Source of the DNA: Escherichia coli
GTDB lineage: Bacteria; Pseudomonadota; Gammaproteobacteria; Enterobacterales; Enterobacteriaceae
NCBI GenBank assembly: GCA_902500205.1
Contig: GCA_902500205.1_4868.1
DNA: 64,000 nucleotides
Reading direction: 5' to 3' (one strand)
In this document: one piece after another, positions 14,592 through 50,367 of the stretch
Layout of the letters: every line of letters begins with the position of its first letter
How positions within the stretch are numbered: the first letter of the stretch is position 1
Program-made: the position numbers and the translations under genes
Notes under the pieces: generated by a model
Seen by the model: only the letters and a program-made list of their open reading frames with translations
What the model was told of the DNA's origin: nothing
Database searches by the model: none

Positions 14592-15164
14592 ATGTCGCAG
14601 TCTTTGCAAGAAGCCTCGACGGATGTGTTGGATGTTCTTATCCAGGCGGGCACCAATAAATTAAGCCTGGAGGAGAGTAAACGACTAAAAACAGCCGCCC
14701 AGACCGCTTTGGGAAGTGATGTTGAAATTGATGTCACTAAACCTGCTAACGTGATTCTTACTTCTTTACGCCCCCTCATCCTTGAGCAGGTGGGGAACAT
14801 GGCGAAAACGTTTGAATCGCAAGCAAAAGCCGCAGTAGAAAGCATGGATGAAAAGCTCGCCAAAGAAACGTTATTGACCCTGTGGCCAAATTTGAAAGGT
14901 CCGCAGAAAGTCCTTATCGTTTTGTTGGTGCTGACCACTGTGGTGATTACTGGCGCGATGGCCTGGGACACACACCTGCATTATCCACAAGAGTTAACGG
15001 ATGTGCTGATTGTGGCGCTCTTACCTTTGTTTGCTCAGGCCGTGTTCTTTACATGGCCGATCAAGACGCTTGCTTACAATTCGATGGCCATTGGCGCCAA
15101 AGTCGTTGAATACAAGCTGAATAAGAGCAACGCGAAGCAACAGACTACCGCACCTAAAGAGTAA
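14592..15164 (+). CDS. Hypothetical membrane protein
   Basis: Hydrophobic segments 'VLIVLLVLTTVVITGAMAW' and 'VLIVALLPLFAQAVFF'. Confidence 0.7.
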   Translation: MSQSLQEASTDVLDVLIQAGTNKLSLEESKRLKTAAQTALGSDVEIDVTKPANVILTSLRPLILEQVGNMAKTFESQAKAAVESMDEKLAKETLLTLWPNLKGPQKVLIVLLVLTTVVITGAMAWDTHLHYPQELTDVLIVALLPLFAQAVFFTWPIKTLAYNSMAIGAKVVEYKLNKSNAKQQTTAPKE

Positions 15165-15170
15165 TTAAGC

Positions 15171-15210
15171 CCTCTTCTCCTCCTGGAGAAGAGGCTTCTT
15201 ATTTTTTTTA
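15171..15210 (+). terminator. Intrinsic terminator
   Basis: 'cctcttctcc-tcct-ggagaagagg' followed by 'cttcttatttttttta'. Confidence 0.8.
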
Positions 15211-15261
15211 TTACGTCTACGTAAATTACTGTGTAAGCACGACCCAAAAGGAATATAAAAA

Positions 15262-15900
15262 ATGCAATTACAATTTCGTCAACGGTCTGTACTACTACCG
15301 TTTAGCGCTATATTAGGTTCGTTTACCAAAATGCTGTCTGTGGATTTTACTGCAGCTGAGAAAGAAGCGCTGTTATTGGCGGCAGTCGAAGAAGTATTGT
15401 GGGAGGCATTTTACGTAGTGCCGTTTCGTAGCTGCTTAAACGCCCCGTATGTTGAAGGGCAGTTTGTCAGCGCGCTTTCCGCCGCGATTACCAAACGTAA
15501 ACTAAATGCCATGGCGCATGTCAAAGAGATCACCGCGCAACGAGGACGGATATTCGCTGCCGTCAGAAATGTGTTAATTAAAGAAGGGTTTCTTGCAGAC
15601 TCGCTAGGTCCCGAGGTTCCTTGGGAGCCGGGTCATCCACCGCGTCAGTTCGACCACGGGTACAAGTTAAGTATAATTATGCCACGCGGTAAGCGTGACG
15701 TCTCATTGGGGAAATGGTTACAGATAAGCTGGGTTCGCCCTACTATCGATTGGCAAGAAATGTCGGTCAATCGCTATCTGGAACACCTGGCAAAAACACC
15801 GGCACAGTTTCACCGTTCAACAATCCTGCCGCTACACATGCTGTTAAAACCGTCCCTGTCATTGGCAGAAGCCATATACCTGCTTAGTGGAGAGAAGTGA
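15262..15900 (+). CDS. Hypothetical protein, translationally coupled to the downstream GNAT
   Basis: 'aaaaggaat' SD; stop overlaps the GNAT start. Confidence 0.7.
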   Translation: MQLQFRQRSVLLPFSAILGSFTKMLSVDFTAAEKEALLLAAVEEVLWEAFYVVPFRSCLNAPYVEGQFVSALSAAITKRKLNAMAHVKEITAQRGRIFAAVRNVLIKEGFLADSLGPEVPWEPGHPPRQFDHGYKLSIIMPRGKRDVSLGKWLQISWVRPTIDWQEMSVNRYLEHLAKTPAQFHRSTILPLHMLLKPSLSLAEAIYLLSGEK

Positions 15901-16382
15901 TGCTTGTTATTAATGTGGTCGAGGATAAGATTCCCGCGAATGTTTATCCTGAACTGGTTGAATGGGTACGCGACTTAAACAGTATTCGCGAGGAGCCTAT
16001 TAAACTCACGATGTTTGTTGAGGATGATATCGTACGGGGAATCATGGCATGGGAACCTGGCCATTTGGTCTATATGGTTGTGCCCGAGGAATCGCGACGA
16101 GGCGGTGTCGGTAGATTTATGCTTAAGTATCTTCAGCAGAACTCCGATCGTAAACATGTCAGCTGTCGTGTTCACCCGACCAACATTCCCGCGCTGGGAT
16201 TCTTTCACCAACAAGGCTTCCAGATTGACCGATGGTATATTGCTGCTGACGGCCAACGGTATTTTCGTATGACGAACTACAATGTTATTTCGTCACACAC
16301 GCCACCGGAGGAAAAGCTTTTAACTCATTACGCTGAAAGCGTTCCCATTTTTCTCTCGATGGCAGAAGGTCATTTCGTCTAA
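15900..16382 (+). CDS. GNAT-family N-acetyltransferase (1 of 3)
   Basis: Acetyl-CoA motif 'RRGGVGRFMLKYL'; typical size; GTG 15897 is an alternative start. Confidence 0.75.
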   Translation: MLVINVVEDKIPANVYPELVEWVRDLNSIREEPIKLTMFVEDDIVRGIMAWEPGHLVYMVVPEESRRGGVGRFMLKYLQQNSDRKHVSCRVHPTNIPALGFFHQQGFQIDRWYIAADGQRYFRMTNYNVISSHTPPEEKLLTHYAESVPIFLSMAEGHFV

Positions 16383-16399
16383 ACGAGCGAGAGTGTATA

Positions 16400-16876
16400 A
16401 TGATACGTGTTGCTTACGAAACACGAGATACGGATGGAACCCGTATAAACGTCATCCGCCGTGTGGAGCTTGTTCCTCAGCATGAATTGAATATTGCAGA
16501 CAGTTCGCTTAGGGGCACTCCTGTTAAGATTCTGAATCTTACGAGACGTTCTTTTCATCACAGTAAGACTTCACCAGCAATACGGTCCAGTAAAAGAAAA
16601 AGTTATGCCGATTTAAAACATCGGTTGTCCCGGCATTTTCGTCGGAGTGCCTGGAAGGCTTTAGTTGAGATTTTGGTTGACGAGCACCTTATCCAGAGGT
16701 TGGAGTGGGAAGAAGTTCTCAAGGAAGCGGGCTATCCAACAAAACCTTTCTCTTATCACTGGCATCACTTCAAAAAACAGTTCCATGATGCCTTACAGGT
16801 ATCGCCAAACACTCGCAACATGATTCACCGTTTGGAGAAAATGGACTGGCTTCTACCCTATCTGGAAGAGGACTAG
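16400..16876 (+). CDS. Hypothetical protein (158 aa)
   Basis: ORF with ATG start. Confidence 0.7.
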   Translation: MIRVAYETRDTDGTRINVIRRVELVPQHELNIADSSLRGTPVKILNLTRRSFHHSKTSPAIRSSKRKSYADLKHRLSRHFRRSAWKALVEILVDEHLIQRLEWEEVLKEAGYPTKPFSYHWHHFKKQFHDALQVSPNTRNMIHRLEKMDWLLPYLEED

Positions 16877-16878
16877 AT

Positions 16879-17268
16879 ATGATGCGTGCTGTATTAGCTG
16901 TGTTTATAATTTGCGTTACTACGTCAGTATACGCGTTTACTGTTCAGGACTTCCCGCAATACAAACCAATGTGGGAAACTGACGCACCTGTGAAATTCAG
17001 CGACAAAGATGAACCAGTCGTGACAGTGGAGAAGGGTGAGTTTGCCGTGGTCAACTACGGGCGTTCTGAACTGTGTCCGGGCGGTGGCTTTTATCTCGTT
17101 AACACAAAGCGCAAGACGTACCAGCCAATAGATGCCGGTACGTGTTCGTCGAAAGTTAAAGCGACAATTGCCCCGACAGTACGAAGACATCGCAGCGTTA
17201 ATACCCACCAGTTAACTTTTTGGGTAGGTAAAGAAATTTCCGCGCGGTATCCTTTGTACGATTATTAA
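16879..17268 (+). CDS. Small secreted/periplasmic protein (predicted signal peptide)
   Basis: N-terminus 'MMRAVLAVFIICVTTSVYA' resembles a Sec signal peptide. Confidence 0.7.
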   Translation: MMRAVLAVFIICVTTSVYAFTVQDFPQYKPMWETDAPVKFSDKDEPVVTVEKGEFAVVNYGRSELCPGGGFYLVNTKRKTYQPIDAGTCSSKVKATIAPTVRRHRSVNTHQLTFWVGKEISARYPLYDY

Positions 17269-17276
17269 ACACAGCG

Positions 17277-17312
17277 TATAGGGGCTTCGGCCCCTATACT
17301 GTTTATTATTTT
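17277..17312 (+). terminator. Intrinsic terminator (TTCG loop)
   Basis: 'tataggggc-ttcg-gcccctata' followed by 'ctgtttattatttt'. Confidence 0.8.
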
Positions 17313-17359
17313 CCTGTGAAGTATTATGACCCCCCTTAATCAAATACCAGGAGCGAGGC

Positions 17360-17977
17360 ATGTCTTTTGTTATTGACTTTAACCACCATCATAGTCAAAC
17401 CTTGCTCGATTTAGTCAATGCTTTTAATGCTGAAACCGTTTATACGCCCCTGACCACAGAACGTATCCGAGTGGAGAGTTATGGTCCACCGGAACCGGAC
17501 GGTCGTGTAAGTGCTTTGCTGACTAATAAGAGTAAGCCTGATGACTATGTGGTTGTACGCTACCGCAAATTGAGCCTCAATGATATAATCACGTTGAAGC
17601 CTGAACATCTCACGTGGTTTGATTTGTCGAAAGGTAAACCGGCCGATTTGCGTGTATGGTCCGAAGCCGCGATGGCCAGTTTTGAATCAGCCTGTGCAGA
17701 ACGTGGTATCATCGTAAGTAAGGCGTGGGAAAACCCTGCGCAATGCCACGTAGAGTACGACATCCTGACCGATCGATACATCCTCGTCTATGAATGTGAA
17801 TCGTTTGTTTACGAATCACGCACACGTATTACGCTACCGTACCATATCGGCCAAGACTTAACCAAGACAACGCTGCCTGGTCTGGAATACGACTTGGCTG
17901 GTTTCTGGGGGCGTAAGCTGTTAGAAGAAGTGACTATCACGAAGCTTAACGGTTTTCGTTATCGTGTGTTTGTTTAA
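17360..17977 (+). CDS. Hypothetical protein (205 aa)
   Basis: 'ccaggagcgagg' SD before ATG. Confidence 0.75.
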   Translation: MSFVIDFNHHHSQTLLDLVNAFNAETVYTPLTTERIRVESYGPPEPDGRVSALLTNKSKPDDYVVVRYRKLSLNDIITLKPEHLTWFDLSKGKPADLRVWSEAAMASFESACAERGIIVSKAWENPAQCHVEYDILTDRYILVYECESFVYESRTRITLPYHIGQDLTKTTLPGLEYDLAGFWGRKLLEEVTITKLNGFRYRVFV

Positions 17978-17981
17978 GACA

Positions 17982-18023
17982 CTACCCTCGCCCGTTTAGC
18001 GAGGGTAGGTATTTATTTTTTTC
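17982..18023 (+). terminator. Intrinsic terminator
   Basis: 'ctaccctcgc...gcgagggtag' followed by 'gtatttatttttttc'. Confidence 0.8.
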
Positions 18024-18058
18024 TTACGAATCGTCCACTCCGTATAGGAGGTAAGTCC

Positions 18059-18658
18059 ATGAAAAAGATTTATAAAATTGCGGTAATCGGTTCTCGGAAG
18101 ACTGATGAAGATACCATGTCTGAAATGTACATGCGATTGTTACGTGGGTTTAATGCGCTGCACGCCAAAGATTACACGATTCATTTTTCCTCTGGCGGCT
18201 GCTGGTGTGGTCCAGACCAATTGCAATTCCGATTTGCCCGACAGTGGGCGAATACAATCGACCAAGATACCGGCAAGAAAGTGGTGTGGGATGATGAGTT
18301 CATTTGTTACCTACCCGATGAGAAAAAGCTCTGGCTCAGGAAACAGAATCCCAACGTAGAGTTCCGTGTAATCCCTCAGGATGACCGCTATCGTGAGATA
18401 GTAGGTAAGCTTCATCCCGCGCCAGAAAAGCTCCAGGAGTTCGCCTGGGCGCTTCACGGGCGTAATCTGAATATAATTATGGGCGATGATTTAGCAACGC
18501 CTGTAGACGCAGTCTATTACTCTGCGCCTTTAGATAAACAAGGTAATCCGACCGGCGGTACTGCAATGGGCGTGAAATACGCTAAGCAGTGTGGTATTCC
18601 TTGTTACCACCATGCGCTTGAAGGACATCTGTGGCTTGAGAGCTTGTGCTTATTATGA
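18059..18658 (+). CDS. Rossmann-like protein with DprA/SLOG-like 'IAVIGSRK' motif (tentative)
   Basis: 'KIAVIGSRK' near the N-terminus and 'GNPTGGTAMGVKYAKQCGIPCY' near the C-terminus; 'aggagg' SD. Confidence 0.7.
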   Translation: MKKIYKIAVIGSRKTDEDTMSEMYMRLLRGFNALHAKDYTIHFSSGGCWCGPDQLQFRFARQWANTIDQDTGKKVVWDDEFICYLPDEKKLWLRKQNPNVEFRVIPQDDRYREIVGKLHPAPEKLQEFAWALHGRNLNIIMGDDLATPVDAVYYSAPLDKQGNPTGGTAMGVKYAKQCGIPCYHHALEGHLWLESLCLL

Positions 18659-18688
18659 CCACGTTGCCTTTAATCAGAGGTCGCTATT

Positions 18689-18961
18689 ATGCAAACTACC
18701 AGTTTAGCTCGTCGTTTGTGGGAAGCGTTCTTCCCTACGCCGTCAAAACCCATTAAGAAGGTGACTAGCCTTCGCTTGTTCCCAGGCACTGAAGATGAGT
18801 TCTTCGATTACCTGGAACGTCACGGTTTTGATTCGAAAGTCGCACCACAAGAAAATGACCCAATTCAGACAGTTTACACCACGCCGGATACGGGAGAGAT
18901 ATTTGCCTTGTGTGTTCGATGGCCACATCGCAACTACTACTATACTTTGACGCAGATGTAA
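18689..18961 (+). CDS. Small hypothetical protein (90 aa)
   Basis: ORF with ATG start. Confidence 0.6.
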   Translation: MQTTSLARRLWEAFFPTPSKPIKKVTSLRLFPGTEDEFFDYLERHGFDSKVAPQENDPIQTVYTTPDTGEIFALCVRWPHRNYYYTLTQM

Positions 18962-18971
18962 GGAGCAGGGG

Positions 18972-20105
18972 ATGTCGACGCTCGATTTAGATTTAGAAGT
19001 CCTGACTGACGACTACGATCGCCTGGTCGCACTCGAAGGTCTGGGAGTTAAGCCCGACTTCCCTGCGGTTTGCGCGATTCGTCAGCGTTGGTGCTTAACC
19101 GACGACGGTGAAGATATGTTGGTTGCTCGTGAATCGCGCGAAGCGATGGAGCGTGCTCAGTTTATGACTGATACTGACCCGCGGGCTGGCATCCATCGCG
19201 CAGCAGGGCGCATTACTGCGAAAGCTGTTAAAGGTACTGGAAAGTTAGTGGGAGCTGGACTAGGCGCAACCGCAAAGGGCGCGGGTAAACTTTCGAAAAA
19301 GCTCGCATTACGCTTTTACGATTTCGCGGAAGCGCTAGCGAAAGAACAAGCCGACCGTTTGAAAGAAATAACTTCGAAAGCCGCATTCATGGAACGTAAG
19401 CTCAATAAGCTCAAAGCACGAATGTCGTTATTGGATGACCACAAAACACTCGCTGCGGTCGACGTTCACACGAGTAGCTGGACGTCTAAAGTTTGCTTTG
19501 AAGATCGACCCGATTTTGAAGCGTGTGTTAAGTTTTCTAAACGAACAAATGCGTACGAAGGCGTCGTGCAAAAGTACACGGTTTACACACGCACCGCTCT
19601 GAAGAAAAGCAAAGCATTCGAAGGGCCAGGCTTAAAACAAATCAGCAAGTCCACGAACTGGGCAGTTAAGCGCGCTGCTGGGTTGCTTGGCATCATCGAT
19701 CCCTTTAAAAAGGTGGAAGCTTTTCCTGTCCCTGGAAATATCGTTGTGGTTGAGCACCATAGTGGTAAGGTCAGTTGGGCAATTGCGCGTGACGGTGAGT
19801 ATGGTGAAACCATTAAATCGCTGGATATGCATCAGTGTGGGAAAGCAATAGAGGCTGTGGAAGCACTTATCAAATCTATTGCAGCACGCGGAACAAAGAA
19901 CCGCGTTGTGGGTTACACCGGCATTTACGAAGAAGTGGAAGCGATGAAGTCCGAGCTTAAGAACCTGGAAGGGGATGAGCTGAAAGAAGCCACTTTGCGC
20001 TACCGCAATGCAATGGCAATGGAAGACGCATTCACCACGGCGTTGGTACGCGTGGCGGAGGGTCTAATGGAGTGGACGAAGCAATCGTTGGCTGAGGTGA
20101 AATGA
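18972..20105 (+). CDS. Hypothetical protein (377 aa), translationally coupled to the downstream GNAT
   Basis: 'taaggagcagggg' SD; stop TGA overlaps the GNAT start. Confidence 0.8.
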   Translation: MSTLDLDLEVLTDDYDRLVALEGLGVKPDFPAVCAIRQRWCLTDDGEDMLVARESREAMERAQFMTDTDPRAGIHRAAGRITAKAVKGTGKLVGAGLGATAKGAGKLSKKLALRFYDFAEALAKEQADRLKEITSKAAFMERKLNKLKARMSLLDDHKTLAAVDVHTSSWTSKVCFEDRPDFEACVKFSKRTNAYEGVVQKYTVYTRTALKKSKAFEGPGLKQISKSTNWAVKRAAGLLGIIDPFKKVEAFPVPGNIVVVEHHSGKVSWAIARDGEYGETIKSLDMHQCGKAIEAVEALIKSIAARGTKNRVVGYTGIYEEVEAMKSELKNLEGDELKEATLRYRNAMAMEDAFTTALVRVAEGLMEWTKQSLAEVK

Positions 20106-20569
20106 TGAAAATTGTTTTTGTCACCAAGCCCAACTCTCCGTATGGAAAGAAATACTACGCGGACTTGTTAGGACTACACAACAAGTTATACGACGATCAG
20201 AAAATAAAACTTGCCGACTTAAACGGTCGTGAAGGGTTTAATCAAATCTTAAAACTGGAGGAGGTTTGGGGTGAAGGTACGCTGTGCGCTTGCGCCGTTG
20301 ATGACCGTGGTGTGGCTGTTGGTTTCATCACCTTCGGCTACACCAAAAAGGGACAACGTTTCCTCTGGGTATATAACTTTTTTGTAGATGAATCGGTTCG
20401 TTCACAAGGCGTTGGCCATGAACTAATCGAAGCCGTAGAAAACTACGGCAAATCAAAAGGCTGCGCATGGATGCAGCTTAACGTGCTCGGTAATAATGAC
20501 CGTGCTATTGCGTTTTATGAACGTTTCGGTTTTCGAACTGAATACCAGGATATGGTAAAGGAGCTTTAA
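20102..20569 (+). CDS. GNAT-family N-acetyltransferase (2 of 3)
   Basis: Motif 'VRSQGVGHELIEAV' and 'AFYERFGF'. Confidence 0.8.
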   Translation: MMKIVFVTKPNSPYGKKYYADLLGLHNKLYDDQKIKLADLNGREGFNQILKLEEVWGEGTLCACAVDDRGVAVGFITFGYTKKGQRFLWVYNFFVDESVRSQGVGHELIEAVENYGKSKGCAWMQLNVLGNNDRAIAFYERFGFRTEYQDMVKEL

Positions 20570-20570
20570 C

Positions 20571-21179
20571 ATGGTGGCTGTCCGCAGCGTGCCACATCAG
20601 ACTGGCTCGCGATATACTTTTTGTGTAAAGCGTTTTGGGGCAAGAAATCGCCCTGGTTGGAAGGTGGTACGTGCGATGGGACAGTTCTGGCAAATACCAC
20701 CCGGCACGTTAAAATATTTTTCAGTAGACAGAATAATCCGGTTCTTAAACGCGGCTGACCCAAGTCAACGCTCCAGTTTTATGGCAGGGATTGTTTGTCG
20801 TCCCGATGGGAAAACACGCGATGCAACCACTCGTGGAATCTACTGGACAGGACAGAATGCGTTTCAGGTTGGCTTACCTTGCCTGAAGTGTGAAGTGACA
20901 CCGTTTAATGGTCCCTACGCCGATGCGCACTTCACCGGTATCTTTGTGTCGTTCCCAGACGACCCGTCTTTAAACTACTTTTTATCAGTGGACAAAGACG
21001 TCAGTATTGATACCTTTTACAAATACTTGTTGTTTTACAGCCGGTATATCCGCGTGACTCCTGTGCATGAAGATTGGTATTATAAAAATCCCTTGAACTA
21101 TGGGAGGGACAGGAGACTAGAAGGATGTTCTATCGAGAGCTTCAACTCTGTACCGCAGCGCTCCATGGCGCTAATGTGA
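20571..21179 (+). CDS. Hypothetical protein (202 aa)
   Basis: 'aaaggagc' SD before ATG. Confidence 0.7.
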   Translation: MVAVRSVPHQTGSRYTFCVKRFGARNRPGWKVVRAMGQFWQIPPGTLKYFSVDRIIRFLNAADPSQRSSFMAGIVCRPDGKTRDATTRGIYWTGQNAFQVGLPCLKCEVTPFNGPYADAHFTGIFVSFPDDPSLNYFLSVDKDVSIDTFYKYLLFYSRYIRVTPVHEDWYYKNPLNYGRDRRLEGCSIESFNSVPQRSMALM

Positions 21180-21496
21180 GCAAGAACGGGGACCTGGAAG
21201 ACGTCGCGCAAGCCTTACGGGTTGTGCCGGAGGTTGACCAGGTCGACATCGACGCTAAGTATTTAGGCGACGGCGTAAAGCGTATTCAGTTGACCGTGCG
21301 AGCCAAACATGGCAGCTGCTCGTTACATTTCCGAGTCAGTGCGGATTATTTCCTGGTACTGCGCTCCACATTCAGTCACGATGGTCGGACTCACCGGGTT
21401 CGGTGGATGCACGACATTACTAAATTTGGCTACCCGCTTGCAGAACAACGTAAAGTCGTCCATGACTTTATGGCTGCAGTCGTTGCGGGGTTTTAA
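21125..21496 (+). CDS. Hypothetical protein (123 aa); start uncertain
   Basis: Overlaps upstream gene by 55 nt if ATG 21125 is used; in-frame GTG 21176 is an alternative. Confidence 0.55.
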   Translation: MFYRELQLCTAALHGANVSKNGDLEDVAQALRVVPEVDQVDIDAKYLGDGVKRIQLTVRAKHGSCSLHFRVSADYFLVLRSTFSHDGRTHRVRWMHDITKFGYPLAEQRKVVHDFMAAVVAGF

Positions 21497-22149: not shown

Positions 22150-22171
22150 GGATAGATGTTATCTTAGGGAG
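22150..22171 (+). promoter_or_regulatory. Conserved 22-bp promoter-like motif, copy 3
   Basis: 'ggatagatgttatcttagggag' abutting the terminator; 95 nt upstream of ATG 22267; leader holds two hairpins. Confidence 0.55.
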
Positions 22172-22266
22172 ACGTGCAAAAATTACGTTTCATCCTTAGC
22201 ATATGCTAGAAGCCGTTGTGAGTCGGTTAAAACTCACCAACTTAAACTTAAAAGCGAGTAAACAAA

Positions 22267-23037: not shown

Positions 23038-23073
23038 TAGGCACTCTTCGGAGTGCCTATTATTTTTTTTTTC
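23038..23073 (+). terminator. Intrinsic terminator (TTCG loop)
   Basis: 'taggcactc-ttcg-gagtgccta' followed by 'ttatttttttttttc'. Confidence 0.85.
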
Positions 23074-23136
23074 TTTACGTATGCTCGCTATATTGTGACA
23101 CCACTACAATTAATTAAACTTTTGGGGAAGAATAAA

Positions 23137-23851: not shown

Positions 23852-23873
23852 AGATATATATTACTTAGGTGAG
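23852..23873 (+). promoter_or_regulatory. Conserved 22-bp promoter-like motif, copy 4
   Basis: 'agatatatattacttaggtgag'; 49 nt upstream of ATG 23923; identical to copy 7. Confidence 0.55.
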
Positions 23874-23922
23874 AGTTACTACTAAACTCTCTAATCGACT
23901 ATTAATCTAAAGGAGTATTCTA

Positions 23923-25372: not shown

Positions 25373-25410
25373 TTAAGGGGTCTTCGGACCCCTTAATTTT
25401 TTGTCTTTTT
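25373..25410 (+). terminator. Intrinsic terminator (TTCG loop)
   Basis: 'ttaaggggtc-ttcg-gaccccttaa' followed by 'ttttttgtcttttt'. Confidence 0.85.
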
Positions 25411-25458
25411 ACGCATTATCCTCATGTTGTGACAGCAATACCTTTTGAGGGCATTACA

Positions 25459-26457
25459 ATGAAAACTGTGGCTAAATTGTTCCGCAGCAGCATTCGCTCT
25501 GCCGAGTTCCAAAATAACGTCGGTAGCGATACTGTACGAGCACGCCGCCTAAAAGAGTTTCTAAAGGACGAGACTTATTCTGTTTACGTGGTGAAGAATA
25601 AAGAAACCTGGGAGGGTTATTTAGTGGCCACCTATCGACACGGTGACCCTACACTAACCTGTCACTATTTTGAGGAGTTTGTACCTGGGGCGTTCGATAA
25701 AGTTGGTTTGGCCCTTGTGCTCGACCATACCGGATTCGAATATATGTCGTGTCCAGCACCTACTGACGATGTTGAACAAAAACTGGTCGAAAAAGGGTTT
25801 GTTCTTTCAGATATCGTTTGGGCATGTCATTCTAAACTGTTTGACAAAGTAATCACCGCATCGGAAATCAAGATTATTTCTGGTGATGCATACGCAGAAC
25901 TTACCAAGGAAGATAAAGACGTTATCCTGAATTTGATTAGCGGTGCAATTTGCGAAGAGCTAGAATACGATATGCGTGGCTACTATACGCACATTGGCCC
26001 GTTAGCAGAAACAGTAATAGCAAGAATTCAGCACGCTAATGTGGAGACTGCAATTTGGCGAGACGGCCATGATATCGTCGGTATTGCCCAGATGCGCTTG
26101 GTTACACCAGGCGTCGTTGAACTTTCTGGTTTAACCGTTGCACCAACACACCGTAAACGTGGCATTGGCCGCCGGCTAATGGGCGCGCTATTCGATTTCG
26201 CACAACGTCATTCCGACCAAGTCTATATTGAAACAGCTGCTGATAATAATCCAGCAAATCACCTGTACGGCAACATCTTACGTTGCAAGCAGGTACTGCG
26301 TACACTAACGTTGAAACGCGATCCTGAACTTATTAGCTGGAAACGGGTGAATGGGAACCGCGCCGATCGAGTGCTGAAAGAAGAACCTAGCATTCCGGTG
26401 GAGACTACAACCAGGCTGACTATCAGTGATATGTTTCAATCTGGCATGAGAGGATGA
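25459..26457 (+). CDS. Two-domain protein: unknown N-terminal domain fused to a C-terminal GNAT acetyltransferase (3 of 3)
   Basis: C-terminal 'LSGLTVAPTHRKRGIGRRLMGALFDFA'; true start ATG 25459 (track 5' extension overlaps the terminator). Confidence 0.75.
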   Translation: MKTVAKLFRSSIRSAEFQNNVGSDTVRARRLKEFLKDETYSVYVVKNKETWEGYLVATYRHGDPTLTCHYFEEFVPGAFDKVGLALVLDHTGFEYMSCPAPTDDVEQKLVEKGFVLSDIVWACHSKLFDKVITASEIKIISGDAYAELTKEDKDVILNLISGAICEELEYDMRGYYTHIGPLAETVIARIQHANVETAIWRDGHDIVGIAQMRLVTPGVVELSGLTVAPTHRKRGIGRRLMGALFDFAQRHSDQVYIETAADNNPANHLYGNILRCKQVLRTLTLKRDPELISWKRVNGNRADRVLKEEPSIPVETTTRLTISDMFQSGMRG

Positions 26458-32797: not shown

Positions 32798-33283
32798 ATG
32801 AAACTACAAACCGAGGTTAAGGAAATACCCGCACAAACCGTGGCATCCGCGAGTGGACTGATACTGTCTATACCGTGCGACGAATTTAAAGACTCGGCCC
32901 GTCCCGACGAAACGATATCGTTAGCATTACGTCGCGGACACGTTTTCTGTGAATTCGACGCGCCTGTGATTAAACCGTGTCAATCGTTCGGGGAAGTAAA
33001 GGCCGCCATTGATCGGATACGTTGTATTGAACTCGTACGCGTTTGCGGTTATGTATCGAACGTCTGCTATGGCGTTGTCGATGGTTACTTTCAACTCCGC
33101 GGTGAATTCACACCACACGGCCCACTCAAAGCGTTAGCGATTGAAGTGATGCGTGCAGGCACCATCACGATTTCTCCACGTATAGAACTCGATGGATATG
33201 GGAAGATTGTTTGCATCCCATCTTTCGATGTTGTGGCAGAAGAAACCCCACGTTATCAATTTCTACATACGGTGAAACAATGA
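32798..33283 (+). CDS. Hypothetical protein (161 aa)
   Basis: ORF; stop overlaps next start (ATGA). Confidence 0.7.
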   Translation: MKLQTEVKEIPAQTVASASGLILSIPCDEFKDSARPDETISLALRRGHVFCEFDAPVIKPCQSFGEVKAAIDRIRCIELVRVCGYVSNVCYGVVDGYFQLRGEFTPHGPLKALAIEVMRAGTITISPRIELDGYGKIVCIPSFDVVAEETPRYQFLHTVKQ

Positions 33284-45117: not shown

Positions 45118-45915
45118 ATGTCTTTTACTTCAAAACAGAATCTGCTAAAACTCATCAACGAAGAGAATAAGATAAGCCCACCGCTTACCTTTGACGATGT
45201 TGATATCGGACTGCCGGAGGTTGTGTCAGTAGACGGTCGTGATTCGGAGGTAGTCCTTACCTCGAAGATGCGCGGTGATGAAGGTACGCAAGTGATTGTG
45301 GACTACCATCGTCGTCCATTAGAGGACTACCTTAAAGGCGATGTTGCCTTTGGAGACGAGGACGTGCAAACCACGCACGACTTACTCGCGGCGATTAACG
45401 AGCGTTTTAATCTGTCTATCTTACCTGAGGATATCGAAGATAACCCCATTGATGGACAGACGCACACAGTCGTTGCTGTTGAAACTTCCCACGAGTGGCG
45501 AAGTCAAGCGGTCATCGAGCTGAAACCTGCTACACCTCTGGCAGAAGTAATAACCAATACAGAGTTGAGCGGTCTTCTGTACCCGGATCACCAGGACATC
45601 CAGTTGGGTCAGGCGTATATCTATTCGCGCGACATCGATTGTAGCCACATCTCTCGTTTCCTGAGCCTCTTAGCGGTCGGTATCGAAGTAGATGACACGG
45701 CGTTAGCAATCGAACTCAACAAATGTGTTCCTGAGATTTGGGTGGCTGAAGATACCCCATCCCCGTATAACTTGCGTGGTGCTACTGTCGTATTCGACGG
45801 CGTACCTGCAGACTTACCGGGAGCAAATACGGCGTTCGCGAAAGTCGTGTCAGTGCAACTGACCGATAAATGTACGAACTTCCAGGGCACCCTCAACTTA
45901 CACTTTAACAACTAG
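45118..45915 (+). CDS. Fibre-like paralog 1 (virion appendage family; function inferred)
   Basis: Shares the family N-terminal signature (about 80 aa, '...RNT...YYDR.NL...') and C-terminal '...L.LHFNN'. Confidence 0.8.
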   Translation: MSFTSKQNLLKLINEENKISPPLTFDDVDIGLPEVVSVDGRDSEVVLTSKMRGDEGTQVIVDYHRRPLEDYLKGDVAFGDEDVQTTHDLLAAINERFNLSILPEDIEDNPIDGQTHTVVAVETSHEWRSQAVIELKPATPLAEVITNTELSGLLYPDHQDIQLGQAYIYSRDIDCSHISRFLSLLAVGIEVDDTALAIELNKCVPEIWVAEDTPSPYNLRGATVVFDGVPADLPGANTAFAKVVSVQLTDKCTNFQGTLNLHFNN

Positions 45916-45925
45916 GAGGGTATAG

Positions 45926-46768
45926 GTGTCTATTTACGATAAGCCCTCGAAAGAGATGTTGTTAGATGCTATTAACCGACAGAACGGATTAACGGCCAAT
46001 CCACTCACATGGGAGCAGGTTGCAACTGGCTTCCCTGAGTCTGTCCAAACGCCTGGCGCTGACCGGAATACGCGTGTGCTCTTATACGGGTTGAACGGCA
46101 AGGGCTACAAAGGCAACGTTACGCTCGAATACGACCGTATCGAAATGGAAATTCTGTTCAGGAACGTAATACCGGTAGTCGTTGCCGACCCGGTAAATAA
46201 ACTCTCTGAGTTGTTGCCGTTTCTGAATGCGAAATACGGCTTGTCTTTAGTTGCCGACGATATCGTTGACCAGTCAGTAAAAGATTTGGGAGAAAGCTGG
46301 TTAATCGATGTGACTATTAAGCCCGGTTGCTTGGCCTGGCAAGGTGGTTTCCGTTTACGCTTTGCGAAGTTCTTCCCGAACTTGGCGGATGTGGTGACGG
46401 ATGTTGACCTCAGCGCAATTATCGCGCCGTTCGTGGTTGCTAGTAAACCACAGGCCGAGTATGTGGCGTATGGTTACGATTGGACTGAACTGCAAAAACA
46501 GTTCACCACCGATTGGGTTTACAACCGTGCAATCACTGCAGCGGATGTTGAGTTGTTGAATGAAGTGGTGCCATTAAAGTTTGCATATGTGACGGGGGCG
46601 AATGCGCAACCTGAACAAATTGCACTCCAAGGTGCACGATTTATGGGGATAACTTCAGTCACACCGAACGATAGTTACAACCCCGATTATCAGCGTGTGG
46701 CGATTATCAAGCTAGCTGCGGACAGCAACTACGCCGGTAATCTCATCCTTCATTATCTCCCGATATAA
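45926..46768 (+). CDS. Fibre-like paralog 2
   Basis: 'aggagg' SD before GTG; 'DRNTRVLLYGLNGKGYKGNVTLEYDRIEM'. Confidence 0.8.
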   Translation: MSIYDKPSKEMLLDAINRQNGLTANPLTWEQVATGFPESVQTPGADRNTRVLLYGLNGKGYKGNVTLEYDRIEMEILFRNVIPVVVADPVNKLSELLPFLNAKYGLSLVADDIVDQSVKDLGESWLIDVTIKPGCLAWQGGFRLRFAKFFPNLADVVTDVDLSAIIAPFVVASKPQAEYVAYGYDWTELQKQFTTDWVYNRAITAADVELLNEVVPLKFAYVTGANAQPEQIALQGARFMGITSVTPNDSYNPDYQRVAIIKLAADSNYAGNLILHYLPI

Positions 46769-46778
46769 GGATTTTGAC

Positions 46779-47624
46779 ATGCCACTTTTAGCCACAGCTG
46801 TAAAGATTATTATCGCGGAGGTTAACGTCGAAAACAATCTCGATTTAAAAGTCGAGGATGTTGTTTTTGGTGTCCCTGCGATTCCAACGTCTGACGAAGA
46901 CTTGGCAAAAGCTAACGGTCACAACGCGATGGTGCGCATTCAGGCATTGGCCACGGCTAATGCTATCGGTGCCACTACCGTCTATTACGATCGTGTTGAC
47001 TTCGCAGACATGTTTACCGATCCGGACGGGATTCAACCTTTACGTGTTCCTGCGCGTCTCGATGCTGTTTACCAGATGCATGACGTGGTCGGGTTAATTA
47101 ACCAGTATTACGGTCTCAGCCTTAAACCTGCAGATGTGGTGAATACCGAAATCGACAGGAAGACATGGCGTGTGGATCTGATTGCCACGCCCACTTCCTT
47201 AGGTTGGATAGGGCAACAACAGGTACAGCTGTTACCAGGCGATGCGTTGCTTCCTGCAAACTTCGAACCGTTAACAGTGATGCCTTACGAGTATCCGTAT
47301 TTCAACATCAAGGTCGGTCAAGGTGCAGTTTATTCGTATCCCTGGCGCTTTGATAATTTCGCGGAGGAATTTCAACGACTAGGTGCTGCGATAACCACAG
47401 AACGTCTGGCACAGATTCTCAAAACGGTCACCGGTGATAACTGGACAACATACCGTAACCCTATCGACTTTAACCTTCGTGAAGCCGTCGTCGTCTATAA
47501 CGGGCGTAACAAAGCGGAATTACCAACCAACCCAGCAGTCGACAACGTGCTGATTGTGGAGCTGTCGTTGTACTGTCTGAATTTTGGCGGGCGTTTGTAT
47601 TTGCATTACAACGACCCTGATTAA
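46779..47624 (+). CDS. Fibre-like paralog 3
   Basis: 'TTVYYDRVDFADMF' and C-terminal 'LYLHYNDPD'. Confidence 0.8.
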   Translation: MPLLATAVKIIIAEVNVENNLDLKVEDVVFGVPAIPTSDEDLAKANGHNAMVRIQALATANAIGATTVYYDRVDFADMFTDPDGIQPLRVPARLDAVYQMHDVVGLINQYYGLSLKPADVVNTEIDRKTWRVDLIATPTSLGWIGQQQVQLLPGDALLPANFEPLTVMPYEYPYFNIKVGQGAVYSYPWRFDNFAEEFQRLGAAITTERLAQILKTVTGDNWTTYRNPIDFNLREAVVVYNGRNKAELPTNPAVDNVLIVELSLYCLNFGGRLYLHYNDPD

Positions 47625-47645
47625 TCCTGAGTAAAGGAAGTAAGA

Positions 47646-48557
47646 ATGAAACCTTTAAACAAAACGTCCGATAAGCTGGTTCTGGATTTTATTAATGAGA
47701 AAAACCCAGACGCAGAACTGGAACTTTCTAAAATAACGCTCGGCACACCGACCCCTATTAGCGATGAAGGTGCTGATCGCAATACCAGCATGACCCTGAC
47801 TGCGAAAAAGAACTCCGGGTACATCGGTACTCAGGACGTGACTTATAATCGCCTGGAAGGCGGTGCGCTGTTCCGTAATGTAACAGCATACCTCGACGTT
47901 AAACTGCCGAAAACCACCACAGACCTGCTGACGACCCTGAACACCCAATACGGATTGAAGCTGACCGAAGACGATATCGTTCCGGCGGCTATTCCGGAAA
48001 ATACCAACCCGCCGCTGACTAACCCGAACGATCCGGACCCAGCACCGGTTGACCATGTCATTACCTTCAAAGAAGACTGCTACGCTTATCTGGGCAGCAT
48101 CCCGGTTAAAATCGGTGCTAAGCCTCAGGTTGGTGAACGTCTGAGTCTGGTGGTAACACAAACCAAGCTCGACGGCCTGGTTTACCCAGATGGTCCAAGC
48201 GAAGCGAAGGGTCAGGGCTACATCTACTCTTACGGTGTAGACTGCACAGCAATCGCAGCATTCCTGAAAGTACAGGCGAAAGGTGTTATCGCTGGCGACT
48301 CTGCATTCCCGGTTGAGCTGAATAAAGTTGTGCCGGAACTGTGGGTTGCATCTGATGAGCCTGCGGATTATAACCTGAAAGGCGCTAACGTGTTGTATGT
48401 TGGTTCTACTGCTGACGATGGCACTGCTTCAGGCGACGAACCTAAGAAACCGGTTGAAGGTGCAAACACTGCTTACAACCAGGTTCTGCTGCTGCAGCTG
48501 GATGACACTCTGTGCACCAACTTCCAGGGCATCATGTACCTGCACTTTAATGCCTAA
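47646..48557 (+). CDS. Fibre-like paralog 4 (codon-optimised, probably the most abundant member)
   Basis: Family motifs plus host-optimised codons (runs of CTG, CCG, GGT). Confidence 0.85.
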   Translation: MKPLNKTSDKLVLDFINEKNPDAELELSKITLGTPTPISDEGADRNTSMTLTAKKNSGYIGTQDVTYNRLEGGALFRNVTAYLDVKLPKTTTDLLTTLNTQYGLKLTEDDIVPAAIPENTNPPLTNPNDPDPAPVDHVITFKEDCYAYLGSIPVKIGAKPQVGERLSLVVTQTKLDGLVYPDGPSEAKGQGYIYSYGVDCTAIAAFLKVQAKGVIAGDSAFPVELNKVVPELWVASDEPADYNLKGANVLYVGSTADDGTASGDEPKKPVEGANTAYNQVLLLQLDDTLCTNFQGIMYLHFNA

Positions 48558-48570
48558 TTAGGCCTCGCTG

Positions 48571-48610
48571 GGAGGAGGAAATCCTCCTCCTGGCTACTCC
48601 TTTCTTTTTT
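48571..48610 (+). terminator. Hairpin with distal T-tract (weak internal terminator)
   Basis: 'ggaggagg-aaat-cctcctcc' then 'tggctactcctttcttttttgg'. Confidence 0.45.
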
Positions 48611-48626
48611 GGCCGAGGAGGCTATT

Positions 48627-49466
48627 ATGGCTTTATATAGTCTGTCTCAGCGACAATATCTGTACGATGCGATTAATGCCGAAAACCCGGATGCTGTTCT
48701 ACCGATGGGTTTAGACAATGCTATCATCGGTACGCCGAAAGCAATCACACCGACAGCAAGCGGTGCCAACACCGAGATTATCATTCGTGGTCGTCAAGGT
48801 CGTGGCTATATCGGTCCTCAGACGTTCCGTTATAAGCGCTTGTCGCTGAACGACTTATTTAAGAACATGACACCTCAGGTAACTGCACCGAATGCCTACG
48901 GTTGGTTGAACGTGGAGTCGAAACGTACTGCGTTTGCGCAGAACCTGAACGGTCGTTATGGATTAAACCTGGTTGCAGACGATATCCCAGAACAATACGT
49001 TTATCTGAACGTAAACAACACGATGCGTATTAACGCTAGCTGTATCCAATACACTGGCAGCATCACCTTTATGTCTATCCGGGGTAAGAATAGCCTCGAA
49101 GACCTCGTGGTAAACGACATCTTGTTGGCTTTGAACCACCCTGCAGCAGCAAGCACTGGTAAGAAATACATGGGCTTCTTGACGTACGGGGAAGACTTTA
49201 CCGATGAAGTGCAGGTTATGGCCTCGTTTAAGAACGGGCGAATGGATGTAGGAAGTAACTTTGATTTGGGTTACACGTCCAATCTGATGGCCACATTGGT
49301 CGCACGTGGGGTACCGTCGTTTGATCCGACGAACTGCACAATTACCCGCTACAAAACGAGTGAGTTGGCGACCGCCAATAAAGCGTACGATAACGTATTG
49401 CTGATTACCGGCATTCAGAACGACCCGAAAGTAATCGGCGAGTGTATGTTGCACTACAACAACTAG
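48627..49466 (+). CDS. Fibre-like paralog 5
   Basis: 'gaggagg' SD before ATG 48627; C-terminal 'CMLHYNN'. Confidence 0.8.
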   Translation: MALYSLSQRQYLYDAINAENPDAVLPMGLDNAIIGTPKAITPTASGANTEIIIRGRQGRGYIGPQTFRYKRLSLNDLFKNMTPQVTAPNAYGWLNVESKRTAFAQNLNGRYGLNLVADDIPEQYVYLNVNNTMRINASCIQYTGSITFMSIRGKNSLEDLVVNDILLALNHPAAASTGKKYMGFLTYGEDFTDEVQVMASFKNGRMDVGSNFDLGYTSNLMATLVARGVPSFDPTNCTITRYKTSELATANKAYDNVLLITGIQNDPKVIGECMLHYNN

Positions 49467-49476
49467 GAATTAGCGA

Positions 49477-50364: not shown

Positions 50365-50367
50365 TTG

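What the first reader, a model, noticed from the sequence alone, without database searches (positions are those of the whole stretch)
15262..20569. Two GNAT acetyltransferases, each translationally coupled to an upstream partner gene
GNAT 15900-16382 and GNAT 20102-20569 each begin at an ATG overlapping the stop of a larger upstream gene (212 aa and 377 aa). Small GNATs paired with a partner are known as toxin-antitoxin modules, but here the partners are large and unlike classical small antitoxins, so a two-component host-modifying or anti-defence function is equally possible.
Basis: partly seen in the sequence, partly recalled or inferred. Interest (0 to 1): 0.55.

Follow-up and report, generated by a model that had tools for sequence, protein, structure and literature searches.

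The report
Two ordinary jumbo-phage acetyltransferases, one capsid-packaged
These are two already annotated acetyltransferase genes of a Salmonella SPN3US-type giant phage, not toxin-antitoxin pairs; one of them, with the internal head protein encoded just upstream, is built into the phage head, so it may be delivered into the host with the DNA.

Summary
The window is 97% identical to SPN3US-like jumbo phages. The coordinates, the sizes and the stop/start overlaps are real. Such 1- or 4-nt overlaps occur at 8 of 66 same-strand gene junctions in this genome, so they are ordinary.

The toxin-antitoxin reading is not supported. The partners show no antitoxin or defence family match. The phage belongs to a lytic clade. 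Both GNATs have been expressed alone in published or deposited work.

Pair 2 (gp94/gp95):
- The 377-aa partner is a diverged phiKZ_IP-type internal head protein with a conserved protease-type propeptide.
- The GNAT itself is a head protein by published mass spectrometry. It is present in DNA-free proheads, roughly equimolar with gp94, and has an intact N-terminus that fixes its start at 20105.
- Its orthologues in two Erwinia phages acetylate spermidine in E. coli. The SPN3US orthologue did not.
- The internal-head-protein-then-GNAT arrangement holds in all relatives examined, with one to three GNAT copies.

Pair 2 is therefore best read as a co-packaged head module, probably ejected into the host.

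Pair 1 (gp87/gp88) was not detected in particles. The GNAT has a solved structure (7DQG). The partner is a clade-restricted orphan with no recognisable fold, and its function is unknown.

Low novelty, modest interest.

The parts
15171..15194 (+). Intrinsic-terminator-like hairpin plus T-run that closes the preceding gene and marks the 5' boundary of the gp87-gp90 transcription unit
   Evidence: 10-bp stem with 6 GC pairs followed by a T-run. A T-run+TTACG motif follows it.
15262..15900 (+). gp87-like 212-aa orphan protein, the partner of GNAT1. Basic (pI 9.5). Not detected in SPN3US particles.
   Evidence: 99.5% identical to SPN3US_0087. PHROG 8034, function unknown. No Pfam, NCBIfam or PADLOC match. 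AF2 model pLDDT 84 / pTM 0.80 with no PDB fold match and only own-family matches in BFVD. Only 25 representatives among 1.84 billion proteins. 0 PSM in all SPN3US particle preparations.
15900..16382 (+). GNAT1 (SPN3US gp88), a 160-aa GNAT acetyltransferase with a conserved C-terminal extension. Not detected in particles.
   Evidence: PF00583 25.9 bits against cutoff 20.7. 159/160 identical to PDB 7DQG. Motif R66-R-G-G69-V-G, VEDD40-43 and the C-terminal TPPEE..PIFLS are conserved across five genera. PHROG 7861. Absent from the published virion lists.
16400..17268 (+). gp89-like (16400-16876) and gp90-like (16879-17268) genes, in the same transcription unit as gp87 and GNAT1
   Evidence: Gaps of 17 and 2 nt, with no terminator until 17276-17299. 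PHROGs 9187 and 5248, function unknown.
17276..17299 (+). Terminator-like hairpin that ends the gp87-gp90 unit
17982..18008 (+). Terminator-like hairpin after gp91. The unit that contains gp92-gp98 starts after it.
18972..20105 (+). gp94-like internal head protein, 377 aa: a diverged, low-copy member of the phiKZ_IP (PF12699) kind and the partner of GNAT2
18972..19151 (+). N-terminal propeptide-like region of gp94 (residues 1-60) with prohead-protease AXE motifs ALE-22, ARE-54 and AME-60
   Evidence: L21 and E22 are nearly invariant, and ES..MMERAQ is conserved, in 23 homologues. Motif positions. SPN3US Table S6 lists 'gp245? (ALE-22, ARE-51 and/or AME-60)' with no peptide coverage N-terminal of these sites.
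20105..20569 (+). GNAT2 (SPN3US gp95), a 154-aa GNAT acetyltransferase that is a packaged head protein
   Evidence: PF00583 65 bits. 99.4% identical to YP_009153389. Head protein with 48-78% peptide coverage in wild-type virions and tailless heads, N-terminus intact. Present in DNA-free protease-null proheads. Positional orthologues YP_007237670 (71% id) and YP_009292176 (53% id) are experimentally active spermidine N-acetyltransferases, whereas the SPN3US protein was negative. R-S-Q-G-V-G and Y138 are conserved.
20571..21496 (+). Downstream genes of the same unit: gp96-like (20571-21179) and gp97-like (21125-21496). gp97 is also a head protein.
25459..26457 (+). Third GNAT gene (gp104-like, 332 aa, GNAT domain at about residues 180-272). 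Classed as non-virion and has no overlapping partner.
   Evidence: RefSeq 'GNAT family N-acetyltransferase'. PHROG 8663 plus weak GNAT profile hits. 3 PSM, classed non-virion.

Best explanation
The region belongs to an SPN3US-like (Seoulvirus) jumbo phage. It holds two unrelated GNAT acetyltransferase genes. Each is the second gene of a tightly packed gene pair, and neither pair is a toxin-antitoxin module.

Pair 2 (18972-20569) is a head module.
- gp94 is a diverged phiKZ_IP-type internal head protein. Its conserved N-terminal segment carries prohead-protease AXE sites.
- gp95 is a small GNAT that is incorporated, uncleaved, into the prohead before DNA packaging. It is present at a few copies per head, about equimolar with gp94. 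These points are shown by published proteomics on 98-99%-identical proteins.
- Inferred: both are made from one late transcript, enter the prohead interior together, and are ejected with the DNA. The GNAT then uses host acetyl-CoA to acetylate a small amine such as spermidine, or a protein, before any phage gene is expressed. The spermidine activity is shown for two orthologues but not for this one.
- It is only a hypothesis that gp94 physically carries gp95 into the head.

Pair 1 (15262-16382) is an intracellular pair that has not been detected in particles. A clade-specific orphan protein is followed by a GNAT whose structure is solved. They sit in a four-gene operon bounded by terminator-like hairpins. 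The substrate and the role of the partner are unknown.
For: Identity of the genome and genes.

Overlaps are ordinary.

gp94 is an internal head protein of the phiKZ_IP kind. Its propeptide motifs are conserved.

gp94, gp95 and gp97 are head proteins in wild-type virions and tailless heads; the gp95 N-terminus is intact.

Both gp94 (11, 18, 12 PSM) and gp95 (0, 17, 12 PSM) occur in DNA-free proheads of protease-null mutants. PSM per kDa in wild type is 0.84 and 0.85, against 1.29 for the 12-copy portal.

GNAT2 orthologues are active spermidine N-acetyltransferases.

The internal-head-protein-then-GNAT order is conserved in Erskinevirus, Machinavirus, Wellingtonvirus, Derbicusvirus and three uncultivated relatives. 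The GNAT is present in one copy (SPN3US), two (Lh1B) or three (Shewanella-associated contig), always at this position.

Pair 1: PDB 7DQG; no PSM for gp87 and no listing for gp88; orphan fold and narrow family for gp87; adjacency conserved even for remote family members; operon boundaries.
Against: - Ejection of gp95 into the host has never been shown.
- SPN3US gp95 gave no N-acetylspermidine in the assay in which its two orthologues were active, so its substrate is open.
- The whole RuvC-to-thymidylate-kinase block is syntenic across the clade. Conserved adjacency alone therefore does not prove a functional partnership.
- 42 SPN3US head proteins are reported as uncleaved, so gp95 needs no special carrier to explain its packaging.
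- In L012 a hairpin plus T-run, seen by eye in the printed sequence, lies between the two genes. In CR5 the gap is 51 nt. Coupling is therefore not universal.
- Cleavage of gp94 is only suspected, not demonstrated.
- The window gp94 itself does not reach PF12699 at E 0.01.
- Estimating copy number from spectral counts is crude.
Confidence: 0.7

Rival explanations
1. Each pair is a GNAT-type toxin-antitoxin module. The GNAT acetylates charged tRNA and blocks translation, and the upstream protein neutralises it.
For: The only support is the layout: a small GNAT whose start overlaps the stop of an upstream gene.
Against: - The partners are 212 and 377 aa and match no Pfam family, including DUF1778, and no NCBIfam or PADLOC family.
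- One partner is a virion internal head protein.
- No GNAT toxin appears among the 42 PDB sequence matches of GNAT2 or the 11 of GNAT1.
- The GNAT2 orthologue was expressed alone in E. coli for metabolite analysis. A structure of GNAT1 is deposited on its own.
- Both GNATs are near-neutral or acidic (pI 6.0 and 6.7).
- The context is a jumbo-phage clade whose Erwinia members are described as strongly lytic.
- The overlap type is common in this genome.
Confidence: 0.03
2. The pairs are adjacent only because the genome backbone is syntenic and densely packed. gp94 is a structural inner-capsid protein. gp95 is packaged independently of it. gp87 has nothing to do with gp88.
For: - The whole block from RuvC to thymidylate kinase keeps its gene order in all relatives.
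- 44% of junctions in this genome are at most 12 nt apart.
- 42 SPN3US head proteins are reported as not cleaved.
- A more distant GNAT2 homologue in Serratia phage Moabite is not next to a head protein.
Against: - GNAT copy number varies from one to three, precisely and only behind this head-protein gene.
- The GNAT stays even where the next downstream gene is lost (L013).
- gp94 and gp95 have near-equal PSM per kDa in wild-type virions, and both occur in proheads.
Confidence: 0.3
3. The packaged GNAT2 acts inside the particle rather than on the host. It would acetylate internal head proteins, or the polyamines that accompany packaged DNA, during head maturation.
For: gp95 is already present in proheads before DNA packaging. 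Its orthologues accept spermidine. From general knowledge, phage heads carry polyamine counter-ions.
Against: No acetylated head protein has been reported, but acetylation was not included as a variable modification in the published searches. The supply of acetyl-CoA inside a prohead is uncertain. Only a few enzyme copies are present per head.
Confidence: 0.12
4. One or both GNATs are anti-defence or host-takeover enzymes that acetylate a host protein. Known examples are the phiKMV-type Rac acetyltransferase acting on the RNA polymerase alpha subunit, and GNAT-type anti-CRISPR proteins.
For: Comparative genomics has proposed that jumbo-phage GNATs act in this way. Delivery with the DNA would suit an immediate-early countermeasure.
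Against: No sequence relationship to any characterised anti-defence protein was found. The only measured activity in the GNAT2 orthologous group is on spermidine.
Confidence: 0.15

Closest known systems
SPN3US gp94 / gp95 and gp87 / gp88 (Salmonella phage SPN3US, Seoulvirus)
   Same: These are the same genes. Protein identities are 98-99.5%, with the same order and the same junctions. RefSeq already calls them 'internal head protein' and 'acetyltransferase'. Published proteomics place gp94 and gp95 in the head.
   Different: The window differs by a few substitutions (one residue in GNAT2). It lacks the extra GNAT that Lh1B, EC001, JN03 and phage 1252 carry between gp94 and gp95.
phiKZ_IP (PF12699) internal head proteins: phiKZ gp93/94/95/162/163 and SPN3US gp53/gp54
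   Same: The gp94 family matches the profile in 14 of 23 members. It aligns with the N-terminal part of gp53, including the IRxRW and ARES motifs. It has an N-terminal segment with AXE protease motifs and sits in the head.
   Different: gp94 is low copy: about 0.84 PSM/kDa against 21 for gp53 and gp54. It is too diverged to reach the Pfam threshold itself. It was not counted in 'paralog family A'. Its cleavage is unproven. It is always followed by a GNAT gene.
Phage spermidine N-acetyltransferases of Erwinia phages phiEaH2 (YP_007237670) and Caitlin (YP_009292176)
   Same: They are positional orthologues of GNAT2 (71% and 53% identity) and likewise lie directly behind the internal head protein gene. 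The acetyl-CoA-binding motif and the conserved Tyr are retained.
   Different: The SPN3US orthologue, 99.4% identical to the window protein, produced no N-acetylspermidine in the same assay. No curated SpeG or PaiA model is reached: 23.6 bits against a cutoff of 250.
T4 internal proteins and Alt (head-packaged effectors and ADP-ribosyltransferase)
   Same: A protein or enzyme is assembled into the prohead interior and expected to enter the host with the DNA. gp94 has a short N-terminal, protease-site-terminated segment like a T4 capsid-targeting sequence.
   Different: The chemistry differs: GNAT acetyl transfer rather than ADP-ribosylation. gp95 has no cleaved targeting peptide. Ejection and target are not demonstrated. 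There is no sequence relationship.
GNAT-RHH toxin-antitoxin systems (TacAT, AtaRT, KacAT, ItaRT)
   Same: A small GNAT is encoded immediately downstream of a partner gene whose stop it overlaps.
   Different: The partner is not a small DUF1778/RHH protein. The context is phage, and one partner is structural. No toxicity was reported when the GNAT was expressed alone. There is no closer similarity to toxin GNATs than to generic GNATs.

Membership tests
GNAT superfamily (PF00583 and clan) | Profile match above the curated threshold | tested here: met
   GNAT2 scores 65 bits and GNAT1 25.9 bits against a cutoff of 20.7.
GNAT superfamily (PF00583 and clan) | Acetyl-CoA-binding motif A (Q/R-x-x-G-x-G/A), conserved in orthologues | tested here: met
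   GNAT1 has R66-R-G-G-V-G and GNAT2 has R-S-Q-G-V-G. R and the first G are invariant in both alignments; the last position varies (G or A) in some orthologues.
GNAT superfamily (PF00583 and clan) | GNAT fold seen in an experimental structure | tested here: inconclusive
   GNAT1 is 159/160 identical to PDB 7DQG, named 'putative acetyltransferase'. The coordinates could not be inspected and no paper was found. GNAT2 was not modelled.
GNAT-RHH type II toxin-antitoxin (TacAT/AtaRT/KacAT) | Small upstream antitoxin of about 90 aa with an RHH/DUF1778 domain | tested here: not met
   The partners are 212 and 377 aa and have no Pfam match at E up to 0.1. One has an orphan fold and the other is an internal head protein.
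GNAT-RHH type II toxin-antitoxin (TacAT/AtaRT/KacAT) | The GNAT is growth-inhibitory when expressed without its partner | not testable with these tools
   There is only indirect evidence against. SPN3US gp95 was expressed alone in E. coli BL21 delta-speG and extracts were analysed. A structure of GNAT1 alone is deposited.
GNAT-RHH type II toxin-antitoxin (TacAT/AtaRT/KacAT) | Closer sequence relationship to tRNA-acetylating toxins than to other GNATs | tested here: not met
   No toxin chain appears among the PDB sequence matches. The best matches are BH1408, Ard1, SSAT2 and YpeA for GNAT2, and N-terminal acetyltransferases for GNAT1.
phiKZ_IP internal head proteins (PF12699) | Profile match | tested here: inconclusive
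   The window protein has no hit at E 0.01. However, 14 of 23 homologues match (best E 1.4e-11). PHROG 2497 'internal head protein' matches at 2.5e-88. hhalign to SPN3US gp53 gives 83% probability.
phiKZ_IP internal head proteins (PF12699) | Located inside the phage head | tested here: met
   Published MS of the 98%-identical SPN3US gp94 finds it in wild-type virions, tailless heads and proheads.
phiKZ_IP internal head proteins (PF12699) | N-terminal propeptide removed by the prohead protease at an AXE motif | tested here: inconclusive
   ALE-22, ARE-54 and AME-60 are present, and ALE-22 is nearly invariant. The authors list cleavage only as possible.
Spermidine N-acetyltransferase (phage SAT / SpeG-like function) | Orthology to experimentally active enzymes | tested here: met
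   71% identity to YP_007237670 and 53% to YP_009292176, at the same genomic position.
Spermidine N-acetyltransferase (phage SAT / SpeG-like function) | Produces N-acetylspermidine | tested here: not met
   This rests on a published experiment, not a computation. The SPN3US orthologue (99.4% identical) gave no product above background. Curated SAT models were not reached.
Head-packaged ejected effector (T4 Alt / internal protein paradigm) | Incorporated into the prohead before DNA packaging | tested here: met
   gp95 gave 17 and 12 PSM, and gp94 11-18 PSM, in DNA-free protease-null proheads.
Head-packaged ejected effector (T4 Alt / internal protein paradigm) | Cleavable N-terminal capsid-targeting sequence on the effector itself | tested here: not met
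   The gp95 N-terminus is intact and the authors report no protease motif. The only AXE triplet, AVE-110, is internal.
Head-packaged ejected effector (T4 Alt / internal protein paradigm) | Delivered into the host cell and active there | not testable with these tools
   No data were found.

The most novel reading that the evidence does not exclude
gp94 and gp95 could form a cargo-adaptor pair. On this reading the phiKZ_IP-type protein uses its protease-trimmed N-terminal targeting segment to dock in the prohead core. It carries an otherwise signal-less polyamine or protein acetyltransferase into the capsid. A few pre-made enzyme molecules would then enter the cell with the DNA and act before any phage transcription. 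They might acetylate polyamines bound to the incoming genome, or polyamines or proteins in the early infection compartment. The one to three GNAT copies found behind this head-protein gene in relatives would then be interchangeable cargoes of one delivery adaptor.
Probability: 0.2. Interest if true: 0.6.

Novelty: new member of a known kind. Interest (0 to 1): 0.3.

Why it matters
As posed, the finding does not hold: these are not toxin-antitoxin pairs, and the gene overlaps are ordinary for this genome.

What is worth keeping is a link that none of the papers I read makes. The giant-phage acetyltransferase family that was shown to acetylate spermidine is, in SPN3US, a component of the phage head. 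It is encoded directly behind an internal head protein in every relative examined.

If the enzyme is injected, it would be an acetyltransferase counterpart of T4's packaged ADP-ribosyltransferase. It would also put polyamine or protein acetylation at the very first moment of jumbo-phage infection. SPN3US has an amber-mutant genetic system, so this can be tested directly.

Tried and rejected
- Toxin-antitoxin and defence families: Pfam, NCBIfam and PADLOC scans of the partners and GNATs gave nothing relevant.
- Specific enzyme assignment: no GNAT reaches any curated NCBIfam cutoff.
- Frameshift fusion of gp94 and gp95: by eye, the GNAT frame is closed by TGA at 20093-20095 and there is no slippery heptamer. 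MS shows a separate 17.6-kDa protein with its own N-terminus. Rejected.
- More distant GNAT2 homologue in Serratia phage Moabite: not next to a head protein, so uninformative for the pairing.
- Literature: no paper on PDB 7DQG. None linking acetyltransferases with ejection proteins. The Goslar virion preprint does not mention a GNAT. The SPN3US infection time-course proteomics paper (PMC6384053) is not held, so expression timing could not be checked.

Full report
**What the window is.** Megablast of 15000-21000 finds 23 phage genomes that cover at least 80% of it. Identity is 96.5-97.4% among the 20 listed, all SPN3US-like jumbo phages of Salmonella, E. coli and Proteus (genus Seoulvirus). The gene map transfers directly from SPN3US:
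- 15262-15900 = gp87
- 15900-16382 = gp88 (GNAT1)
- 16400-17268 = gp89 and gp90
- 17360-17977 = gp91
- 18059-18658 = gp92 (DprA-like)
- 18689-18961 = gp93
- 18972-20105 = gp94, annotated 'internal head protein' in RefSeq
- 20105-20569 = gp95 (GNAT2)
- then gp96 and gp97
- a third GNAT, gp104, at 25459-26457

**Check of the observation.** Both junctions are as described. The first is TGATG, with stop at 15898-15900 and ATG at 15900. The second is ATGATG around the stop at 20103-20105. For GNAT2 the published N-terminal peptide evidence for SPN3US gp95 ('N-terminus intact, P1' is K') selects the second ATG, at 20105. Both small proteins are GNATs.

The overlap itself is not special. In the RefSeq annotation of the corresponding 50 kb, 14 of 66 same-strand junctions overlap, 8 of them by 1 or 4 nt, and 29 are at most 12 nt apart. 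The overlap is also not conserved in relatives. Gaps are 8 and 12 nt in Caitlin and 8 and 51 nt in CR5. Wellington has 4-nt overlaps, and one metagenomic relative has an 80-nt gap.

Terminator-like hairpins on the + strand lie at 15171-15194, 17276-17299 and 17982-18008. They place gp87-gp90 in one unit, and gp92 onward in another.

**Pair 2: the partner.**
- gp94 hits PHROG 2497 'internal head protein' at E 2.5e-88.
- 14 of 23 diverse homologues match Pfam PF12699 (phiKZ_IP), although the window protein itself does not.
- The family profile aligns with the N-terminal part of SPN3US gp53 at 83% probability, E 8.9e-6. gp53 is one of the two abundant PF12699 ejection proteins.
- The alignment shows a nearly invariant L-V-A-L-E(22) and a conserved ES..MMERAQ. 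These match the AXE motif of the prohead protease gp245.
- The SPN3US authors list cleavage at these sites as possible, because peptide coverage lies only C-terminal to them.
- The AF2 model (pLDDT 70, pTM 0.69) has N-terminal helices, a disordered Gly/Ala/Lys-rich linker at 45-104, and an alpha/beta domain at 105-377.
[quoted passage not shown] I treat this as weak resemblance.

**Pair 2: the GNAT.** Published mass spectrometry of SPN3US classifies gp95 as a head protein.
- Peptide coverage is 48-78% in wild-type virions and in tailless heads.
- It gave 54 PSM in a 37-slice analysis of heads, against 78 for gp94.
- In DNA-free prohead-like particles of protease-null mutants, both gp94 (11, 18, 12 PSM) and gp95 (0, 17, 12 PSM) are present. 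They therefore enter before DNA packaging and independently of cleavage.
- In wild-type virions PSM per kDa is 0.84 for gp94 and 0.85 for gp95, against 1.29 for the 12-copy portal. This suggests a handful of copies of each, about equimolar. The estimate is crude.

A separate study tested SPN3US gp95 as a candidate spermidine N-acetyltransferase in E. coli delta-speG and found no product. The proteins of Erwinia phages phiEaH2 (YP_007237670) and Caitlin (YP_009292176) were active. I verified that those two proteins are the positional orthologues of GNAT2. They are 71% and 53% identical and lie directly behind the internal head protein gene. The acetyl-CoA motif and the conserved Tyr are intact in the window protein, so the negative result is unexplained.

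**Pair 2: conservation.** The order internal-head-protein then GNAT is found in Seoulvirus, Erskinevirus, Machinavirus, Wellingtonvirus and Derbicusvirus. It is also found in three uncultivated relatives whose head proteins are 35-59% identical to gp94.
- The head protein is duplicated in phiEaH2 and Wellington.
- The GNAT is duplicated in Lh1B-type phages, where the junctions are again TGATG.
- The GNAT is present in three tandem copies on a Shewanella-associated contig.
- One relative (L013) has an uncalled gap where the next gene, gp96, would lie, yet keeps the GNAT.

This copy-number variation at one fixed position argues for more than backbone synteny. However, the whole block from RuvC to thymidylate kinase is syntenic, so adjacency alone is not proof.

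**Pair 1.**
- GNAT1 is 159/160 identical to PDB entry 7DQG. No associated paper is in the library.
- gp87 had 0 PSM in every particle preparation, and gp88 is not listed in any of them.
- gp87 has no family match outside PHROG 8034.
- Its confident AF2 model (pLDDT 84, pTM 0.80) has no PDB fold match. In BFVD it matches only its own family.
- A profile search of 1.84 billion representatives finds only 25 proteins. All but the weakest hit (583 aa) are 194-233 aa.
- Wherever I looked, including two remote members, a GNAT1-type gene follows within 10 nt.
- GNAT1 orthologues conserve an acidic VEDD motif and a C-terminal TPPEE..PIFLS extension.

Nothing more can be said about function from these data.

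**Toxin-antitoxin reading.** It fails on every feature that could be tested.
- The partners are not small RHH/DUF1778 proteins.
- No toxin GNAT is among the PDB matches.
- There is no PADLOC match of note.
- The proteins are near-neutral.
- The genome belongs to a jumbo-phage clade whose Erwinia members are described as strongly lytic.
- Both GNATs have been produced on their own.

**Most likely mechanism.**
- Shown: gp94 and gp95 are co-encoded and co-packaged internal head proteins. gp95 is an intact GNAT. Two of its orthologues acetylate spermidine.
- Inferred: gp95 is ejected with the DNA and acetylates a small amine or a protein at the onset of infection. The analogy is with T4's packaged Alt enzyme and internal proteins.
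- Hypothetical (about 0.2): gp94 is the adaptor that brings gp95 into the prohead. Against this, 42 SPN3US head proteins are reported as uncleaved, so no dedicated carrier is required.
- For pair 1 I commit only to an intracellular acetyltransferase, not detected in particles, with a clade-specific accessory protein.

**Verdict.** The toxin-antitoxin interpretation is rejected, and the 'two-component host-modifying' alternative is partly supported for the second pair. Novelty is low, because the genes are annotated, one is crystallised, one has been assayed, and both head proteins are in published proteome tables. The useful new point is that the spermidine-acetyltransferase orthologous group and the packaged head protein gp95 are the same family.

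Noticed in passing
window 25459-26457: A third GNAT gene (gp104-like, 332 aa) with a roughly 180-aa N-terminal region of unknown function (PHROG 8663). It is preceded by a terminator-like hairpin and an 89-nt gap, so it has no overlapping partner. It is classed as non-virion in SPN3US (3 PSM).
   Followed up: partly
L002 6072-6566 (Escherichia phage Lh1B; also EC001, JN03, phage 1252) and L011 4006-5464: The slot behind the internal head protein gene gains GNAT genes. Some Seoulvirus genomes carry a second GNAT there (34% identical to GNAT2), joined by TGATG on both sides. A Shewanella-associated 223-kb contig carries three tandem GNATs there.
   Followed up: partly
window 15195-15215, 18010-18030, 23060-23085, 25400-25415: Downstream of several terminator-like hairpins the T-run is followed by a shared TTACG motif (TTTTTATTACG, TTTTTCTTACG, TTTTCTTTACG, TTTTTACG). 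It lies upstream of gp87, gp92, the thymidylate kinase gene and gp104. It may be a phage promoter class.
   Followed up: no
window about 2100-2125, 2305-2330, 22150-22175, 23865-23890: A second recurring intergenic motif, (G/A)ATAGAT(A/G)TTATCTTAGG(G/T)AGA. From memory it resembles the AT-rich early promoters of phiKZ-like phages.
   Followed up: no
window 45118-51195: A tandem array of similar-sized genes (265-303 aa) annotated as virion structural proteins. It corresponds to the large SPN3US head 'paralog family B' (gp138 onward).
   Followed up: no
window 32798-33283: A 161-aa gene annotated 'head maturation protease' in RefSeq. By position it should be gp109, a 17.7-kDa head protein. It is probably the truncated, cryptic paralogue of the prohead protease described for SPN3US.
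   Followed up: no
window 16879-17268: The gp90-like protein starts with a hydrophobic, signal-peptide-like segment (MMRAVLAVFIICVTTSVYAF), so it may be exported. The preceding gp89-like protein is very basic (pI 9.9).
   Followed up: no
window 20571-21496: The gp96-like and gp97-like ORFs overlap by 55 nt (21125-21179). gp97 is a head protein by MS, and gp96 is not listed in the published MS tables I read. One relative (L013) has an uncalled gap where gp96 would lie, and phiEaH2 has an unannotated gap at the same place.
   Followed up: no
GenBank records LR535901, LR535903-LR535908, LR535911-LR535913, LR535917 (SPFM phages): In these assemblies the same genes match only as 2-7 broken pieces with shifted frames. 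This looks like sequencing or assembly errors rather than real pseudogenes.
   Followed up: no
L012 4054-4133: In one uncultivated relative the internal head protein and the GNAT are separated by about 80 nt that contain a hairpin plus T-run (seen by eye). Co-transcription of the pair may therefore not be universal.
   Followed up: no
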